From contig OZ241826.1 of assembly GCA_965202585.1 (NCBI GenBank), positions 23,064,001-23,128,000 on the forward strand: a DNA stretch of 64,000 nt, written 5' to 3'. This stretch comes from Thalia democratica (lineage: Eukaryota). Shown here piece after piece: positions 21,315 through 37,167 of this stretch. Both the position numbers and the translations under genes were made by a program. Position 1 is the stretch's first letter, and each line of letters starts with the position of its first letter. The notes beneath the pieces were generated by a model. It saw nothing but the letters and a program-made list of their open reading frames with translations. It was not told the DNA's origin and did not search any database.

Positions 21315-22538
21315 TTATCCAATGAGGAACACTCGCTCAGCTTTCTGCCTTTTTTCTTCTGAAAGCTTCTCTATCGAACAGTGTTTAGAGGCGGCCATCC
21401 GAAACTGAAACTCATCGCCTTTCATTTCCAAGAACTCACCGCAATGGTCGCAAAATCTGACCCCGGCGTAATCGGACAGCGTCACCAACACCTTGTACTT
21501 ACCGCTGTTCAAAGTTGCTCTCAGAGAATAAGTGCCATAGTTGTATGTTTCGCCGGACTTATTGGTTTCTAAAAATACTGAAGCAAAAGTAATTTCGTTG
21601 TCAGAGTTGACAATAAAAATTGTGGGGTCCACTTCGAGATCGTGTATTGTGATCAGGTTTATCAGCACCTCCGTGTCGTCCTCATCAACCACCAGGTCGT
21701 AACCCATGAAATTTATATCAAACCGCGGTTTCAGCGCAGGCCAAGTTTCGTTGATCTCCACAGAAGTTTCAATTTGCGCCATTCTGAATACACTGCTTTC
21801 GTTGTAAGAAATGTACAGCGCTTCCAGATTTTCGTAGAAGTCGCTTTCGGTAATGCGATGGTATGTGCCGTGCGGGTTGTAAACCTTCGCCACACCGTCA
21901 CTCACGTCAAGCAGAGTGTAACAATGATACTCGTGCGAGTTCTCTGGCTTCTTGAACGTGACCAGCATCGGAGAATTGGTCTTTAAACCGTGGTTGACAA
22001 CGTCGCTTGCTTGGAACGGCAGCGTGGTTGAAAAAACCGGAAACTCTTCGAAGTAGCCGTTGGTGAGGCTGGTCAGTACGGTGGTGGCGGGCACCGCTCT
22101 GCAGGACTCGTACTCGCCGTCAAAGTGCAGATCGACCAGGGCTTTCTCGAGCAGCGGGCCGACAACGTCATCGTTCGCGCTCGTCGAGTAAACCAACTTT
22201 GAGTTTGTCCTCGGCAAGCTGTCCACGTCGACCGCGACCCGATGAAGTTTTCCGAGCTTGTGAATGTTGAATTCAAACTGTTCGTCGCCTCGTCTGAAGT
22301 TCACCACTTTGTTGTACAACTCGGCGTTGCTCGCCAACGTGGCCATTGAGGCAACGAGACAGCAGTTTCCTAAAGCTTTGCTTTGCACAAAGCTTTTCTC
22401 GCTGATGACGTCATCAAAGTTTTGGCCAATGTAACGTGAATCCGTTGCAAGAACACCATTGTAACTTGGGCTATTTGACAACAGCACTGTCAAAATTGAG
22501 AAAACTAGAAGTAGTTTATTTATGTTAAGCTTAAACAT
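21315..22538 (-). CDS. Intronless atypical calpain (CysPc plus C2-like/CBSW domain, no PEF) with N-terminal signal peptide, 407 aa
   Basis: QSKALGNCC (QGxLGDCW), LLEKAL, HCYTL and YNPHG give a Cys70/His216/Asn232 triad (numbered from ORF Met 22571). The C-terminus is beta-sandwich-like. The second Met (22538) follows a ttttcag acceptor by 2 nt and starts MFKLNINKLLLVFSILTVLL. Confidence 0.85.
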   Translation of the reverse strand: MFKLNINKLLLVFSILTVLLSNSPSYNGVLATDSRYIGQNFDDVISEKSFVQSKALGNCCLVASMATLASNAELYNKVVNFRRGDEQFEFNIHKLGKLHRVAVDVDSLPRTNSKLVYSTSANDDVVGPLLEKALVDLHFDGEYESCRAVPATTVLTSLTNGYFEEFPVFSTTLPFQASDVVNHGLKTNSPMLVTFKKPENSHEYHCYTLLDVSDGVAKVYNPHGTYHRITESDFYENLEALYISYNESSVFRMAQIETSVEINETWPALKPRFDINFMGYDLVVDEDDTEVLINLITIHDLEVDPTIFIVNSDNEITFASVFLETNKSGETYNYGTYSLRATLNSGKYKVLVTLSDYAGVRFCDHCGEFLEMKGDEFQFRMAASKHCSIEKLSEEKRQKAERVFLIG

Positions 22539-23551
22539 TTCTGAAAAGAAAATTGTAGAATCGTCTGGCATATTTTCTAACTATTCTAAACTTAAAATTT
22601 TAGGTTTAGTATCTGTATAATTTACAAAATAAATAAAATTAAAAGTCATCAGATATAAACGGGAAAGACTTTGCTACTAATAAATGTACGACTCTATATA
22701 TGAAGTATAAAAAAATATTTAATAGTTATTATTAAACAAACATAAAGTGAAAAAAATATTTAATAACTTAAAAAACTTATTTATACGACTGTTTTAAAAT
22801 GAACACAAATTTAATACTTTAATTGTTTAAAATCCCTTACAAAGTGTAAGTTAGAAAAGTATCTTTTTATTTAATGATTGAAAAAGTATAAATATTTTCA
22901 ATGCCTATAGTTTATAAACTAAGACTTACTAAATCTTAATTTTTAAATATTTTATATATAAAGAAAGGCCGCATGACGATCAAAGCTAAAAAACATAAAA
23001 CTAACAACAGCTAGATTTTAAAAAGTTCCAAAAGTAGCAAGCTTTATAGCAAATTCAAGATAGTGAATATCTGTGCACATTAAACTTGATAAAAAAGTGT
23101 GCACCTTAAATTTTACTTTAGTGGCTTACTAGTTTTAGTTCAACCCAACACTTTTAACTGGTCACACGACCAAATACTTTAAGCTGAAGCCTGATAAAAG
23201 TTCGTTTGTCTTAACTCACAAAACTTTAACAAAATGATGATAGAATTAATCTGTTATTTATCTTACTAAAGATTATTTTTATTTTACTGTTTTTATTATA
23301 GAAAAAGTTTTTTATTTACATTGCCCACGTCTAACAAACTCAAACAAACTTACATAGTCTGTGATACCTACTGTAACTTAGCACTCTTAGTGTGCTCTTA
23401 TTAGGTATTAGTTTTGTATAGTCAACTTAATGTTGAAACAATAAAAAAAACAACACAAAATAAAAAAATGTAAAAATAAAGTATATTAAGGCGCTGTATG
23501 TTGTAAAAAAGTTATTAGTAACCAAGTCTGTGTACTTGAAGAGAATGAGGT

Positions 23552-29330: not shown

Positions 29331-31327
29331 TTTATATGAAATCCGGCCAGTCAATGTAAATAATTAAAAATTTGTACAAAACCTTTTTTTGAATTTTTTC
29401 CAGAAAACAAAACCGTATGACTTTGACCCTAAAAAGGTTTTTGCAATTGACTTTTAATTTTTGTGATGATAAAAACACCTTTTTATAATAGTATCTTGTT
29501 ATATAAATATTGTAGAGCTATACAAATAAATACTTCAATTTAATAATAGGTTCATAATCAGGTATCAAGTATATACAATTGGTGTTCCAGCTCACGACAC
29601 AGGCAGGTTTTATATGAAAATCATTACTAAAGGATACATGGAGGAATTCCTAAACGTCTCATATTTCCTGGGTCAGCTCGTTTGCTCAGTATTTATGAGG
29701 CTAGCCAAAGATTAATTGTGTACTGGGGTTACCTTAAGTTGTTTTTTGAAGAGGTTTATAAAACAGGGCTTTAAAAATAGGCTTTAAAACATTTAAGTTT
29801 GTAACAAATTAAAAGTTTTAAACAGTTTTGTGAGACAGAAAGATGCTCACAAGCAAATAGAATAGCCAGCTTGCTTAAAAATACAGAGGTATTTATATAG
29901 ATTTCTTTTCTTCTGCTTGTTGTACAAAAAGTAAGTGTATATTATAAACCATTAATTATAATGCAGAGTTTATTTCAATATGTGTATTTTGAAGGTTAAT
30001 AATTGCAATAAATTTATTTAATCAGAATAGATAGTTCCATTGAGCCTTTATAGCCAGCTTGAGACATGCACAAGGCACCTTAAGTTAACTTATGTTGATC
30101 CTGCATCAGGTAAAAAAATAAACAAGTTTTGTAGTTATATAAAACAAGACTTACCTCCATTTTTGCTAATTTTATTTGAGGTTAAGTAAAGTAATTCTTT
30201 TTAAAACTTATTCTCCACTCCACCTTAAAAGAAGTATTGTTGACTTAATTCAACTTAGTTTTTAATAACTGTAAGAACTACGACTTGAAAGGCCAACTAT
30301 AAGTGTCAGACTACCTGCAGAGCGTGAGTTAACAAAATTAGGTGTCGTCCAGCAGAACAGAGTAGTTTGCATTTGCTAGTTTCTAAAATCAAGTATGTAA
30401 TTTTTTGTAACATTAACAACTAATTACACTAAGCGTTGGCACTAGATTCCCAGTTTTTGAAACCTTTTTTTAGTATAGTGTACATCAGACATGTTAAAAA
30501 GCTTTGCTTTGTTTACTCAAGCGTGAAATTAATAACTTAAAACAAACTAAATTTTATACGCTTCATTGCTGAATTACCATAGTAATAATTAGCATTTTAA
30601 CAAGTCTGGTGTACATAGTTTAATACACACAAGTTTTAATGAAAATATTGTTTCTATAGTATTTGAATTCTAATAGATCAGATCTACTTGCAAGTTGTAT
30701 GTTATGAGCCTCGTCAAAGAACTTAAAGCACGTATTCCTAAGTGTTTGGACTTAATCAAAAGTATCTCAGTACTTAATAAAGTGAGCTTTTTCAGTTTTT
30801 AGTAGAATTCGGCTGTAAGTTAAATTGATCTGAACTGTAAAATAATAGGTATTTGAGTTTCCTTTGCCTGAAATTAGTCCATTATTAAATAATAAAATAG
30901 TTTAGAATATGACTTTACAAGAAGAACGTGACTTTAATGAAAATTAATGGTCCTTCTTGTCTGCTGAATATCATGAAGCAACATGTTGTCACTTATCATG
31001 TTTATACATTTTCTAGAGCATCATTATTAATAAACTTTGTTAATACTATAAATAGAATTGTCAATTTAACTCTTAGGAAATCAGTTGTTTAAATCTCAAA
31101 AGTTTTAACAACACAAATAAAGTTAAATGAGAAAAATGAATAAAAAAAGTTGTGCGATAGATGCAAATTTTTTTGTGAATGACGTAAAAACACAGCCAAC
31201 ACTTTAAGAGTGCTTGAACTAGGATCAACAGAAAGTTGTAAATTAGAAATTTTTGTTTCAGTTTTTTTAAGTAATCTAACTGATCAAGCCAGGTTAAATT
31301 AAGTTGGTAAAAGTGAGCGAAGCTTAT

Positions 31328-33418
31328 ATGGATTTTGAAGAAGATTATATAGAATGGGAGACAGCGAAGTCCTCACCTATAACGCAGGTAGACTACAATC
31401 TAAACTCTCCGTTGATGATACGGGATGATGACTACATGAGAGATTTCCTTTTGTGTGGAAGAAGTGTTCCTCCAGACTTCAATTCTAAGCGGAAACTTTG
31501 GGAATTAATGAAGGCAGATAATCCACTTAGAGAAAGAGACAAGTTAATACCATATCAGGATTATCATTCGACGATGGTTGAAATACTCAATGAAAGATGG
31601 TCTGGATATTCTAGAAAGAATGTATTGACCATGTGGGAGGATATCTATGATATCGCACAGGAGCCCGTCAAGGTTATATCTGAAGCCCTCAATTTAGAGC
31701 ACAAAGACAAAAGCTTAAAGGGTAGATTTAAGAAGCTGTTAGATCCTGTCGATCATAGTTACAACAAGATCTCAGAATATATGTTTGGTAGCATCTTATT
31801 TTTTTTGATGACTCTGATTATCAGTTCTAGCGACTTTGGAACAGTATTTTCCAATGTGAGACGTTATTTTATGAAAATTAGCAAGGATCCCAAATTGGAT
31901 ATAGTGTCGGTAAAGAACAAGGAAGAAGAAGTTATTATAAAAAGATATCCCGGAGCTGTGTATTTCCGAAAATGGAAGATGGTGGTTTCTAGAAATTTCT
32001 TTTTGATGATTAAAGATATATTGACAGCAAGAGGAAACGGTCTCGCATCTCTCATAGATAGACAAGATCTCGGTGATGAACTGTATAATATACAGACTAT
32101 ATTATCGATGTATAAACATGGAGATGAGATCTTAAAACAGACTGGATGTCACGGCTATAAAGGTATCAAGCTTTTGGAGCCCATATGCAATGACAGGATG
32201 GCAGAGCTGGCAGATGGAATGAAGCTATTTCCTCGATTCGATGCCCTTTACAAACATATAGGAAAGACAATAACTGAATTGCCCTTGGGTGACCTGACAA
32301 GCAAGCTATGGTCATTAGTCAGAGATCAGACCAATCCTAAGTTAATTGCTAATATGTTTGGATCCTTTCGTCACTGGGGACATCCCTACATCAAGAGCTT
32401 AGAAGGAATATCTGATCTTTATGACAGAGTCACCTCTAAAAGAGATGTGAATTCAGAGTATGTTGAAAAGCTAGCAAGTGATTTTGCAAGAAAAATATTG
32501 CGGAGTGTCTTTTTGAAGCAAAGAAGGTGGAGTGTGGATGTTGAAAAGATGGATGAGTCAGATCCCTTATACAGTTTCATCAAAAACAAAACATGGCCTA
32601 CTAAGAAGGTGATCTTAGATTATGGCGACAAATGGCATCGATTGCCCATAACCCAGGCATTTGAATTGCCAGAAGCTATAGATATGTCTGATTTGTACTC
32701 TGACAAATCTCATAGTATGGATAGATCTGAATTCTTAGAAGCTTTGAGGACTGGATCGGGAGAGTTCTTCAAGTCCAAGAAAGTAATGAAAACGTTATTG
32801 GAAGCTCCAGACCTCTGTCTAAAGGATAAATTTGAACAATGGAGTCGTGTGGGAATACCGGATGAAAATAAAATAATCGGATTAAAAGAGAAGGTAAGAG
32901 AATTGAAAGAAAAGGGGATATTCTTCTCATTGATGAGCTGGGAATTGAGACTGTATTTTGTGGTGACGGAATACTTGATCAAGGAAAATTTCCTTCCTTT
33001 GTTTGACGGTTTGACTATGGGTGACAGTCAATCATCCGTCATACAACAAATGGCGAAAAACACCAGAGGACACGGGAGAGATGACTATAAGCTGATATTT
33101 GTCAACAACAGTCTAGACTTTGAAAAGTGGAACAATCTGCAGAGACATGAATCAAATAGTCCAATTTTTAAAGTTATGGACCAACTCATGGGTTTAGATA
33201 ATGTCATAGAAAGGACCCATGATCTGTTCAAAGAGTGCTGGGTTTATTATGCAGGAGGTAGGCAAATGATGACGATCAACGATGATAATCCAGAAAATTT
33301 ACATGGTGTGAGGGTGTTTTGGGAAGATCAAGAGGGAGGTTTTGAGGGAATTAGGCAAAAGGGATGGAGCATAACTGGTTTTTATATGTTAGAGAGAGGC
33401 AATGCAGGAAAATGCTGA
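31328..33418 (+). CDS. Intact 696 aa N-terminal portion of the viral L gene (ends just before motif C)
   Basis: ATG at 31328 (MDFEEDYIEW...) is in frame with the ORF-track ORF 31304-33418. It is terminated by an apparent 2 nt loss in a GA run at 33391-33398. Expression is unknown. Confidence 0.55.
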   Translation: MDFEEDYIEWETAKSSPITQVDYNLNSPLMIRDDDYMRDFLLCGRSVPPDFNSKRKLWELMKADNPLRERDKLIPYQDYHSTMVEILNERWSGYSRKNVLTMWEDIYDIAQEPVKVISEALNLEHKDKSLKGRFKKLLDPVDHSYNKISEYMFGSILFFLMTLIISSSDFGTVFSNVRRYFMKISKDPKLDIVSVKNKEEEVIIKRYPGAVYFRKWKMVVSRNFFLMIKDILTARGNGLASLIDRQDLGDELYNIQTILSMYKHGDEILKQTGCHGYKGIKLLEPICNDRMAELADGMKLFPRFDALYKHIGKTITELPLGDLTSKLWSLVRDQTNPKLIANMFGSFRHWGHPYIKSLEGISDLYDRVTSKRDVNSEYVEKLASDFARKILRSVFLKQRRWSVDVEKMDESDPLYSFIKNKTWPTKKVILDYGDKWHRLPITQAFELPEAIDMSDLYSDKSHSMDRSEFLEALRTGSGEFFKSKKVMKTLLEAPDLCLKDKFEQWSRVGIPDENKIIGLKEKVRELKEKGIFFSLMSWELRLYFVVTEYLIKENFLPLFDGLTMGDSQSSVIQQMAKNTRGHGRDDYKLIFVNNSLDFEKWNNLQRHESNSPIFKVMDQLMGLDNVIERTHDLFKECWVYYAGGRQMMTINDDNPENLHGVRVFWEDQEGGFEGIRQKGWSITGFYMLERGNAGKC

Positions 33419-36400
33419 AACTAGCGTATTATTACAAGGCAATAATCAGATCATAACAAGGAAATATAAAGTTAATGCGGCAGATGAGAAAGGTATATTA
33501 AGAGAATTAGACAATATAAGAGCTAATAACAATATAATGTTAAACAAAGTAAGAGTGGGTAGTGGAAAGTTGGGCTTGACTCTAAATCAGGATGAAGTTA
33601 TGACTTCTTGCGAGTTTATAAATTACGGAAAGTTGTTAAAATTCTGAGACAAAACTATACCTTTAGAAATCATAAGGCTCTCGAGGGTAATGAGTGTTAC
33701 CAATGGACAGTTACCATCTTTTAGTGCGAATTTGTCTTCTACATCGACAGCTGCATTGACTATATGCCAGTACTCAGATTCTCCTGTGTACTCAATGTTG
33801 GAATACTCATTCTTCGGAGCTTTGACTTTCTTGCTTTCTATGATACACAGTGTCGTCCTAGGAGAATCTTACATAAACACCAAGACAAAATTTGATGACC
33901 CTTCAACATACAAGTTCATCATAAGATATCTGTATAAGAATCCAAGTGTAGGGGGCGTATCAGGAATGAATCTGTATCGTTTTATGCTCAGGGGATTTCC
34001 TGATCCTGTCACAGAGTCACTTTCCTTGTGGAAAATGATATACGACAATGGAAACTCTATCCTCAAGGAACTAGCCATAGAGGCGGGAAATCCGATGTTA
34101 GGGCCTGTGGATCAAAGATCCTTTTATAGACTGTTAGAAAAACCCGAGTCTTTAAACATACCAGGTGCAATATCTTATAAAACAACTTTAAAAGAAGAAG
34201 TAAGGAAGGGGCTAAGAGATCATCTTCCAAAAATTCACAACAATTTTCTTATAGAGGCAATTAATTACAATTTCGACAATACACATGACACAGTCAATTA
34301 TATCATGCAGATTAAGCCCCTGTTTCCGAAATTTAACTCAGAATTTTACCAATCAACGTTTCTTAAATTAGCTGATTCTGTGATAGGACTGTTTGACAAC
34401 TCAAATACGATACAAAGAATATTTTCTGAAGAATTAAATTGACATATGGGAAGTGGTGAGAAGGAGTGAAAGAGACTCTCTCAAACAATTGATAGATCCT
34501 AGGGTCGGGAGTTTCAGTGAAATTTGGGGATGCTCTTCTAGCAGAGCAGACAGACTAAGAGAGTCTGGTTGGGGATCTAAAGTGGTAGGAACTACTATAC
34601 CTCATTCTTTTGAGATGTTTCAGAGGATAAAAGTAGAAGATTGAGATATCATATCTGAACCTCATGTCTTGGTCAAAAAACAGGGTATATCTTGGTTGGG
34701 GGAATGGAAGAGGGGCCCCTTGCATGCCTATCTAGGTTCTAGAGCCAAGGAATCCACTTCTTTATATCAGCCCTGGGAGCGAGATGTGGAGGCTCCTACT
34801 CTAAGAAGAGATTTGAAGCTCCGAGATGCCATAGGATGGTTCATTATGTCTGGGTCCTATCTGGCTAAAACAATATTTAGTAATATTCTAGCTTTATTAG
34901 GTGTTGATATTGAAGAAGAGCAGACAAAATTCTTGAGGTCAGGAAATCCCATACATAGATTTTACTCTTCAAGGCAGAGCTACCAAGGCTCTCCTGGGTG
35001 TGGAATAAATAGTCTCACTGTTTTACGACTACAGATTACTTAGGAGACATTAATTCAGAAAATCACGACTTCATGTACCAGTCAGTTATTATTTGGTCTT
35101 CAGAACTGACCATGTTTCAACCGTATATGAAAGTGAATGTAAAACCGTATATGAAAGGAGTATTGGATGGACTGGTCGTGGAAGCAAGCATAGGCTCTAT
35201 GACCAAGAGATTTACAGAACATAAAATCAATTTTAGATATGTTCATGAAGGAGCTGTTTTATCACTCATAACATCCTTAGCTTCTAATGACAACTTTCTG
35301 CAATGTCTAAAATTGAGTGAATTTGAATCATACATCTCTGATAGATCTGGAACCTTTAGTAAGAACTACCCTCCCACTCTAGGAGACATTTAACATCTGG
35401 TCATGTCATGGTTCATTGATGAGATAATAACATCAGGAATGAGACCATTGAGGCCAGACATGTGGCTGTTCGCTGACTTATGCACTCTGAAAATGAAAAT
35501 TTTATTCATAATATGTAAAGAGTGTCAAGACTGGCTCACAGGAAGAATCTAGATTCTAGAGACATAAAAGTTATAGACATTTTAAGAACTTTAATGTCTA
35601 ATTACGCCAGTTATTTTGGAAGGCCGGAATTATCAGGAGAACTCCACAGAGCTTACCCCGATATGAATTTTATAGAGTTTAAAGGAGCCGATTACCAAGT
35701 ACGAAAGGCGATAACGGCACCTAAATTTAAGAATCCTAAATCCAAGTCCAAAAAGAAGAAAAACAAATTTAAAAGAGAGAGGATCAATTTTTCATCTATC
35801 ACTGAGAATCTAGAAGTTTTTCATTTACCTAGGGAATTAAAAGACGATTCTTTAATGATTGCTCATGATTACTCAAATCCAATCATATCCGGGAAAAGGC
35901 TTGTCTATCTCAATACGGGAGCTCATTACAAATTAAAATCCATGTTGAGAAGAAGGGACAATATCAAAAGGGCTATGATAGTGTGGGATGGTGCAGGAGG
36001 AATAACTTATTTGGTATTGGGGATGTATGATGATTGCAGAGTGTTTTATAACTCCATATTTTCTGTGACTGATAATTTATCAGGCTGATTGTCTCCAGGA
36101 GTCCCAGGAGCTCTCACTGTACTGTCCGATGCTCAATCAGCTCGACGTGTAAACAGAAAGTCTGCATGGAAGCCATCCTCTGACCTCTCAAAATCAGATA
36201 CTTGGGATTATTTCAAAAGCATAGTGACAAAATTCTTTGACGGGCGAAAGTGTGAACTTTGCATATGCGATGCAGAGATAATTTCTGAAGAAATGACTAG
36301 TAGAATAGAAAATCTTATGTATGATCGGCTTCAAGACGTTCTCAAAGTTGGAGGAAGAGTGATACATAAGACATTTTGGAACAGATTGATGAAAAGTCCT

Positions 36401-36484
36401 CCAAGTCTAGTGAAACTTGTGGAATTGTTCCATATCGTGAAGGTTGTAATTTTTTTAAATAAAATCACAATAATAGGTACCTAA
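31328..36484 (+). pseudogene. L: Endogenous viral element: rhabdovirus L (RdRp, capping, connector, methyltransferase), C-terminally truncated
   Basis: Colinear motifs DYNLNSPL, FRHWGHP, K.RELK, DFEKWNNLQR (motif A), QEGGFEGIRQKGWS (B), LQGNNQII (C, GDN altered), GTTIPH, YLGSRAKES, IHRF (HR), WLFAD, TGAHYKL, DGAGG, SDL...TWDYF. At least 8 stops/frameshifts after 33390. Confidence 0.97.
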
Positions 36485-37167
36485 AATTCAGAATCACAAA
36501 TATGTAAGTTTCAAAATACTATCACGGTAAAACTTTCTCAATAAAATACACTAAATATAAAATAGATATTCGTGAAAAACTTGCTTTAAGCATTTAGTAA
36601 AAGAACTAGAAGCGCAGGTTTAAAATTGTTTAAACTTGCTCGAAGGTATTTCTGTTCTAAACAGAGTAAGCATTTTTGTTTAAGTTTAGTGTAAATGTTT
36701 TGGTACTTTTTTTTAGTACACTTTCAAGCAAATCGTCCTTATGGAAAAAAAAATAAAAAAAATACATTTTAAAAATTAAGAATAAATAAGAGAAACAACT
36801 TGAAACGTGCGAAAGAGAATATAAAACAAATACCTATCCTGATATTAAAGTTAAGATATTTCAATAAGTATAAAATATAGTAGATGTATTTTTAATGAAA
36901 ACTAAATAAACAAAAAACATAAGTCAGAAGCTCCTCTTCAAGTTTAGTTATTAAGTTTTCTAGAAAAATATTTTGCTTTGTAAACTTAGTTCTAAAAAAA
37001 CTTTACAACGATAAAGATAAACATTTTAATAATTTATTATCAACACATGAATCTTATATGGTTTCAAAAAGAAAACGTTTAAAGGTCATTAGCTTTCTGG
37101 TGAAACTATTTGTTTCATTCCATTATTAGACAATGCTTTTAACATTCGTTAAAACTGTTGGGTAGAA

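What the first reader, a model, noticed from the sequence alone, without database searches (positions are those of the whole stretch)
31328..33418. Endogenous rhabdovirus L gene with a strikingly intact N-terminal 696-codon ORF while the rest is riddled with lesions
Seen: no stop or frameshift in 31328-33390. Between 33390 and 36090 there are at least 8 lesions: frameshifts at ~33395, ~34438, ~35020 and ~35500, and in-frame stops at 33645, 34642, 35391 and 36086. My rough, post hoc estimate is a probability of about 2-3% that uniformly scattered lesions would all miss the first 40% of the element. The open part covers the N-terminal region and RdRp motifs pre-A, A and B but stops just before catalytic motif C. 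Inference: a host-co-opted truncated L could act as a dominant-negative binder of viral P or RNA, or the bias may be chance. Some conserved residues have drifted (KERELK to KVRELK, GRFF to GIFF), which weakens the co-option case.
Basis: partly seen in the sequence, partly recalled or inferred. Interest (0 to 1): 0.8.

Follow-up and report, generated by a model that had tools for sequence, protein, structure and literature searches.

The report
Decaying rhabdovirus polymerase fossil in tunicate
This is a broken copy of a rhabdovirus polymerase gene sitting in the chromosome of what is likely a tunicate (a sea-squirt relative), and its unbroken first 696 codons are most likely a chance survivor of ordinary decay rather than a gene the host has put to use.

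Summary
In detail: a 696-codon open frame (31328-33418) begins a single-copy, 5.1-kb rhabdovirus L insertion whose rest carries four frame breaks, four stops, a 0.3-kb gap and a 3' truncation. The host's mitochondrial code points to a tunicate. Co-option is not supported. The open part has changed at 5 of 136 strongly conserved positions, like the dead part (3 of 69) and about nine times the rate of replicating viruses (22 of 5072). An orthologous copy in a second organism differs at four visible codons, all amino-acid changing. Sister copies (86-89% identical, probably a separate insertion) break inside the same 5' region in 7 of 10 records. The first break lies in one of only two (AG)4 runs. 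In VSV the P cofactor docks mainly on domains this fragment lacks. Against my reading: the gap has a face-value chance of about 2%, substitution density against the second organism leans low (ratio 0.45, interval 0.05-1.10), and the sister copies share a break at almost the same spot. The lasting interest is a germ-line record of an unnamed dimarhabdovirus-like lineage in tunicates.

The parts
31328..36451 (+). Endogenous rhabdovirus L-gene insertion, single copy; covers residues 3-1825 of a 2133-aa relative, the C-terminal ~300 residues absent
31328..33418 (+). Open frame, 696 aa: N-terminal domain, fingers and part of the palm (motifs F, A, B); last few residues out of frame; two short in-frame gaps and five substitutions at strongly conserved positions, two of them in motif F
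33391..33398 (+). (AG)4 run holding the first frame break; one of only two dinucleotide runs of 4 or more units in the 5120-nt element
33393..34427 (+). Out-of-frame rest of the RdRp domain (motifs C-E, thumb); stop at 33645; motif C also substituted at an invariant position
34441..35120 (+). Capping (PRNTase) domain remains; stop at 34642, frame break at ~35010-35020
35120..35131 (+). Site of a ~0.3-kb gap in this genome; organism B's contig has extra sequence here
35124..35522 (+). Connector-domain remains; stop at 35391, frame break at ~35520
35519..36451 (+). Methyltransferase-domain remains; stop at 36086; homology ends at ~36451
31262..31270 (.). Left copy of a 9-nt T-rich direct repeat, possible target-site duplication (weak: low complexity in AT-rich DNA)
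36450..36458 (.). Right copy of the same 9-nt repeat, at the point where L homology ends
29390..31071 (.). Dispersed host repeat on the 5' side (80-88% identical copies elsewhere in the genome)

Best explanation
This is a rhabdovirus L gene fixed in a host chromosome, likely of a tunicate and likely copied in from viral RNA by a host reverse transcriptase, and it is most likely decaying without selection along its whole length. The open 5' frame would then be the longest stretch that has so far escaped a stop or frameshift in a young insertion (about 2% decay per site, estimated), ended at a slippage-prone AG run. Shown: identity, single copy, positions of the breaks, an orthologous copy in a second organism, equal decay of conserved residues in both halves. 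Inferred: host group, route of insertion, age, slippage as the cause of the first break, absence of function.
For: (1) Window-only changes at columns at least 80% conserved: 5 of 136 in the ORF against 3 of 69 missense plus 1 stop in residues 705-1043 (Fisher p = 1.0). Control: 35 nearest-neighbour comparisons among the database L proteins gave 22 of 5072 (0.43%; p = 6e-4). (2) The five listed differences of organism B inside the ORF fall in four codons and all four change the amino acid, one in the conserved N-terminal motif; P(4 of 4) is 0.31 at omega 1 and 0.018 at omega 0.2. (3) Metagenome pieces differ at 22 of 1165 nt in the ORF and 43 of 2460 nt in the dead part: ratio 1.08 (0.64-1.79). 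Combined with organism B it is 0.86 (0.55-1.30), where omega 0.2 predicts about 0.4. (4) Sister copies break before residue 690 in 7 of 10 records, and their polymorphisms hit conserved columns as often as variable ones (17 of 270, 17 of 408). (5) The first break sits in one of two (AG)4 runs; a third related lineage without that run reads through the site (P0135, P0142, P0143). (6) A gap this long somewhere has P = 0.144.
Against: P(no break in the first 40%) is 0.016 by position and 0.014-0.021 from the estimated decay. Organism B alone gives a 5'/rest substitution ratio of 0.45 (0.05-1.10; p = 0.09 against 1). None of 4 metagenome pieces in the ORF has a gap while 4 of 8 in the dead part do. 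The ORF's two gaps are both in frame. All 8 sister proteins that reach the site end by a frame change within about ten codons of the window's first break. The counts are small, so moderate selection (omega about 0.5) is not excluded.
Confidence: 0.74

Rival explanations
1. The host keeps the truncated L as a protein. A folded N-terminal domain plus fingers, without catalytic motif C, would act as a decoy that interferes with the polymerase complex or template of related viruses.
For: Native start and 696 open codons; face-value chance about 2%; folds like VSV L 1-700 (pLDDT 85.4, TM 0.82); the VSV N-terminal domain, residues 43-371, is a self-contained fold (PMC6636387 passage); low-leaning substitution density against organism B; sister copies cut at nearly the same site; precedent for selected L elements (PMC4865735 passages).
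Against: Conserved positions decay as fast as in the dead part, in the N-terminal domain (1 of 34) and the core (4 of 101); 4 of 4 visible orthologue codon differences change the residue; sister 5' frames are often broken; in VSV the three ordered P segments bind the CTD, the CTD-RdRp edge with the C-terminal arm, and the CTD-connector groove (PMC7049099 passages), which this fragment lacks.
Confidence: 0.12
2. The element acts at the RNA level, as a source of piRNAs or antisense RNA against the cognate virus. The open frame is then incidental and every observation of neutral protein decay still holds.
For: It lies next to a dispersed repeat and is shared by two organisms; such a role is known for mosquito elements (recalled, not checked here).
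Against: Nothing here shows transcription or small RNAs; nucleotide divergence over the element (130 of 5623 nt against organism B) is not visibly low.
Confidence: 0.1
3. An insertion that could make an active viral polymerase was harmful, so an early break upstream of motif C was favoured in each lineage and everything decayed afterwards.
For: The window and all 8 informative sister proteins break just before motif C; in the sister set this is the only break shared by all records.
Against: Any upstream break would serve, so selection does not explain the exact site while an AG run does; the window copy lacks its C-terminal ~300 residues anyway; a second L element on C7 has a 718-aa open frame through motif C.
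Confidence: 0.03
4. The breaks are assembly errors or the stretch is viral contamination.
For: None found.
Against: Short-read contigs of organism A match 31021-35120 and 35138-36650 with no differences, and organism B's single contig spans the element and both flanks; the element sits inside a chromosome-scale contig.
Confidence: 0.01

Closest known systems
Non-retroviral endogenous viral elements from rhabdovirus genes in arthropod genomes (PMC5014481 passages)
   Same: Rhabdovirus gene sequence in host DNA, with stops, next to repeats.
   Different: Host is likely a tunicate; nearly the whole L gene from its native start; source lineage has no named member in my searches.
eEBLL-1, the bornavirus L element of Eptesicus bats (PMC4865735 passages)
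   Same: Mononegaviral L gene in an animal germ line, orthologous between related hosts, long open frame.
   Different: eEBLL-1 has a 1718-codon frame, intact motifs, transcripts and purifying selection over 11.8 million years; here the frame ends before motif C, motifs have drifted and no constraint was detected.
Dimarhabdovirus-type L proteins (VSV 6u1x/5a22; vesiculo-, sprivi-, perhabdo-, ledanteviruses)
   Same: 35-37% identity over the ORF, same domain order, same fold.
   Different: Closest relatives are unnamed sequences (P0002/P0111 at 51%, sister copies at 86-89%) that form their own clade with the window ORF (SH-aLRT 99).
Tunicate novirhabdo-like viruses (bioRxiv 10.1101/2024.12.15.628590, section 7 read)
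   Same: Rhabdoviruses associated with tunicates.
   Different: Those are exogenous contigs at the base of Novirhabdovirus; this one is endogenous and groups with dimarhabdovirus-type sequences. I could not compare their sequences directly.

Membership tests
Rhabdoviridae L gene | RdRp, capping, connector and methyltransferase domains in order | tested here: met
   PF00946, PF14318, PF21080 (below its cut-off, E 1.7e-4) and PF14314 in order along the pieces
Rhabdoviridae L gene | Best sequence and fold matches are rhabdovirus L | tested here: met
   Named hits among the 103 are rhabdovirus-type L proteins; VSV and rabies L rank first by sequence and fold
Rhabdoviridae L gene | Complete, catalytically intact polymerase | tested here: not met
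   Frame ends before motif C; C-terminal ~300 residues absent
Dimarhabdovirus supergroup / Alpharhabdovirinae | L phylogeny nested among its members with proper outgroups | tested here: inconclusive
   Quick IQ-TREE, 59 rows: nested beside the Bahia Grande / Lone Star tick group (SH-aLRT 95), but midpoint root, no bootstrap, no novirhabdovirus or plant rhabdovirus rows
Endogenous viral element | Viral sequence joined to host DNA in a chromosome and inherited | tested here: met
   G000:C1; host repeat flank; one contig of organism B spans element and both flanks
Endogenous viral element | Retrotransposition marks (target-site duplication, poly-A) | tested here: inconclusive
   9-nt T-rich direct repeat at both ends, low complexity; no poly-A tail, 3' end truncated
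Co-opted L element (eEBLL-1 type) | Purifying selection on the open frame | tested here: inconclusive
   Conserved-site decay equals the dead part and combined density ratio 0.86 (0.55-1.30) rejects strong selection; no full dN/dS possible
Co-opted L element (eEBLL-1 type) | Functional motifs preserved | tested here: not met
   Two motif-F substitutions, motif C out of frame
Co-opted L element (eEBLL-1 type) | Frame kept in orthologues | tested here: inconclusive
   Organism B's contig has 23 gap letters in 31018-35120 whose places were not listed
Co-opted L element (eEBLL-1 type) | Transcribed and translated | not testable with these tools
   Only contigs, none on record as RNA, were available

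The most novel reading that the evidence does not exclude
Two separate germ-line insertions of one marine rhabdovirus lineage were each cut just before catalytic motif C and kept, so that a tunicate makes a catalytically dead N-terminal half of a viral polymerase as an inherited antiviral decoy: a co-opted truncated L in an invertebrate chordate.
Probability: 0.1. Interest if true: 0.8.

Novelty: new member of a known kind. Interest (0 to 1): 0.33.

Why it matters
As a decaying fossil it is an ordinary kind of element. It does give germ-line evidence that an unnamed dimarhabdovirus-like lineage (P0002/P0111 and relatives) infected what is likely a tunicate, the sister group of vertebrates. The one tunicate virome paper found reports novirhabdo-like viruses there, and three searches listed no report of a tunicate rhabdovirus insertion; the library omits most subscription journals. 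If the decoy reading were true it would be a new form of inherited antiviral defence, and the orthologue in organism B makes that directly testable.

Tried and rejected
No RNA holder listed among public runs; not used as evidence. DNA for the sister copies: two scans of JGI metagenome contigs found nothing, and the viral scan gave one 1135-nt fragment of P0002, so their flanks and host are unknown. HMMER search with the methyltransferase piece found only distant relatives. The Atlas gave generic mononegaviral L clusters without taxa. Earlier scan findings: none for sequence or genome, two unrelated ones by words. Hemizygosity or an empty allele: one contig of run X1 joins 31116 to 36570 at depth 43.6 and the element is one unbroken contig at depth 45.7, but the joint does not match the element's ends, its middle is not known, and a 67-75% paralogue of both flanks exists (L026); left unresolved. 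Sister copies as plain orthologues: judged less likely, because window-sister differences avoid conserved columns in both halves (5': 55 of 280 variable, 15 of 272 conserved; 3': 16 of 87, 13 of 250), which points to divergence while still viral. Co-option of the N-terminal domain alone: 1 of 34 conserved columns changed against 4 of 101 in the core, no difference. The careful tree did not finish; the quick tree is reported. One paper search returned no paper; one returned two reviews that I did not open.

Full report
Observation. The frame 31328-33418 gives 696 residues without a stop and matches PF00946 positions 1-698. Downstream pieces match the rest of the RdRp, the capping domain, the connector (below cut-off) and the methyltransferase in order. 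Using the closest relative P0002 (unnamed, 51% identical), frame changes lie at about 33395, 34430-34440, 35005-35020 and 35520, and stops at 33645, 34642, 35391 and 36086. In addition about 108 codons are missing at ~35122, homology ends at ~36451 (residue 1825 of the 2133-aa P0111), and the open frame has two short in-frame gaps near codons 299 and 317. The frame leaves L about 15 codons before motif C. With 8 uniform breaks, P(first beyond 40.4%) = 0.016 and P(any gap that long) = 0.144.

What it is. The element is single copy in G000, follows a dispersed host repeat and has a low-complexity 9-nt direct repeat at its two ends, a weak hint of a target-site duplication. The model of the ORF (pLDDT 85.4) matches VSV and rabies L best (TM 0.82 and 0.81). 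In a quick tree of 59 rows (55 of the hits, plus the ORF, P0119, P0111 and P0143; region 201-690), it groups with four unnamed sequences (SH-aLRT 99) among dimarhabdovirus-type L proteins; the tree has no bootstrap and no true outgroup. The genome's mitochondrial COX1 has 33 AGA/AGG codons that read sensibly as glycine, that is NCBI table 13 (the conserved glycine motifs and the link of table 13 to tunicates are recalled). Chromosomal copies of this mitochondrial DNA at 79% identity tie it to the host. The host is therefore likely a tunicate; two marine metagenomes hold parts of the element.

Orthologue. One 7149-nt contig of run X3 (labelled organism B) spans 31018-36650 with both flanks: 86 substitutions and 23 gap letters in 31018-35120, 44 substitutions and no gap in 35131-36650, and extra sequence at the 0.3-kb gap. 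So the insertion predates the A-B split, the break at ~35520 is shared with B, and the large gap is not. Contigs of organism A match the window exactly over 31021-35120 and 35138-36650, so the breaks are not assembly errors. Metagenome pieces that span three of the 3' frame breaks differ in length from the window, so those breaks may not be fixed. The table listed only 8 differences of B's long contig (218 rows of the table were not shown): 3 in the flank and 5 in the ORF, at codons 13, 26, 58 and 65. All four codons change the amino acid; codon 26 lies in a column 91% conserved. That these are the consecutive first differences is my inference from their order.

Tests of selection. First, at columns at least 80% conserved where the sister copy and P0002 agree, the window differs at 5 of 136 in the ORF and at 3 of 69 (plus one stop) in residues 705-1043; over all columns where those two agree, 18 of 355 and 13 of 225 (p = 0.71). 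The control, 35 nearest-neighbour comparisons among the proteins at over 75% identity with conservation computed without the pair, gave 22 of 5072 (p = 6e-4; reciprocal pairs are counted twice). Two of the five changes lie in motif F, which contacts the incoming nucleotide in VSV (PMC6636387 passages). These rates imply about 1.8-2.1% decay per site, predicting 3.3-3.9 stops in the 3' part (4 seen) and 2.2-2.6 in the ORF (0 seen); with frameshifts, P(none) = 0.014-0.021. Second, substitution density. Of the listed metagenome pieces I used the 12 inside the element (4 in the ORF, 8 beyond) and dropped one that straddles the 5' flank and the flank pieces; 1440 shorter pieces were not shown. The result is 22 of 1165 against 43 of 2460 nt, ratio 1.08 (0.64-1.79). 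Low-depth contigs may add errors that pull the ratio towards 1. Strong purifying selection is disfavoured; moderate selection is not excluded.

Sister copies. A cluster of 14 ENA and Logan proteins is 86-89% identical to the ORF over the aligned parts. Grouped by equal contig length, which is my inference since contig names are not given, they form 10 records. Seven break before residue 690, at about 476, 520, 576 and 582; three are open over the part they cover. Records with the same break share private substitutions (P0105 with P0123 at two columns, P0114 with P0117 at one), which favours real alleles, though one column is shared across groups. Their polymorphisms do not avoid conserved columns (17 of 270 against 17 of 408). 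Their 3' part forms a second frame of 383-408 residues in 5 of 7 records, so there is no 5' privilege. Window-sister differences avoid conserved columns in both halves, so most of that divergence likely arose in replicating viruses and the sister set is likely a separate, younger insertion; its host and flanks are unknown.

The shared break site. All 8 sister proteins that reach it end by a frame change within about ten codons of the window's first break. In the window the break lies in one of only two (AG)4 runs in 5120 nt; sister copies also show length changes in another purine-rich stretch near residue 520-525, and a third related lineage reads through the site. A slippage hotspot is the simpler explanation; it is inferred, not shown, and I could not see the sister DNA.

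Mechanism of the decoy idea. In VSV the ordered parts of P bind the CTD, the edge between CTD and RdRp with the C-terminal arm, and the CTD-connector groove, and the authors call the CTD the adaptor for P (PMC7049099 passages). Residues 1-696 lack these. The N-terminal domain (VSV 43-371) is self-contained and the RdRp domain runs to 866, so the product would be a whole N-terminal domain with a cut-open palm. Other contacts of P are not excluded, and in pneumoviruses P binds the RdRp (same paper).

Literature seen. PMC4865735, PMC5014481, PMC7049099, PMC6636387: passages only. bioRxiv 10.1101/2024.12.15.628590: passages and section 7; its supplements are closed and could list other tunicate rhabdoviruses. 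Other papers: search listings only. Purifying selection on an Aedes rhabdovirus L element is cited second-hand from PMC4865735.

Verdict. A real, well-preserved endogenous rhabdovirus L, most likely decaying neutrally (0.74); co-option as a protein about 0.12. New member of a known kind, with moderate value as a host record for an unnamed virus lineage.

Noticed in passing
L012:1411-2796 (G000:C6, near 67128164-67129129): Rhabdovirus nucleoprotein-like element with an unbroken 461-codon frame (PF00945, E 2e-44), followed by an A-run resembling a gene-end/poly-A signal. Either very young or a better co-option candidate than the L element.
   Followed up: partly
L006:8626-10000 and L007:1-2267 (G000:C7, about 31964600-31968300): Second, distant mononegaviral L element (23-28% identity to the rhabdovirus L proteins tested) with a 718-codon open frame through motif C; 1251 nt of it are duplicated at 99.9% about 2.5 kb downstream.
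   Followed up: partly
L013-L016 (G000:C7:968930-969232; three places on C2 between 67616354 and 67797178): Four further short rhabdovirus nucleoprotein fragments, three of them repeated on C2.
   Followed up: no
L018:147-566: 139-codon frame about 700 nt downstream of the N element with a weak match to Tenui_N (E 2.5e-5, just under the cut-off); possibly another virus-derived piece.
   Followed up: no
window 21315-22580 (-): 421-codon open frame with a calpain-family protease domain (PF00648, E 6.7e-15), 8.7 kb upstream of the element.
   Followed up: no
window 31116 and 36570: A contig of run X1 joins these places at a depth like that of the element itself; may be an allele without the element or a paralogous repeat.
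   Followed up: partly
P0111 / P0002: Full-length, unnamed 2133-aa L on an 11.7-kb contig, the closest intact relative; a candidate extant tunicate-associated rhabdovirus.
   Followed up: partly
P0144: 2588-aa database protein made of tandem, rearranged repeats of rhabdovirus connector and methyltransferase regions; unrelated source, perhaps a concatenated element or an assembly artefact.
   Followed up: no
G000:C4, 56.84-56.95 Mb (L010, L011): Nuclear copies of mitochondrial DNA, 3-4 kb long, 79% identical to the mitochondrial contig.
   Followed up: partly
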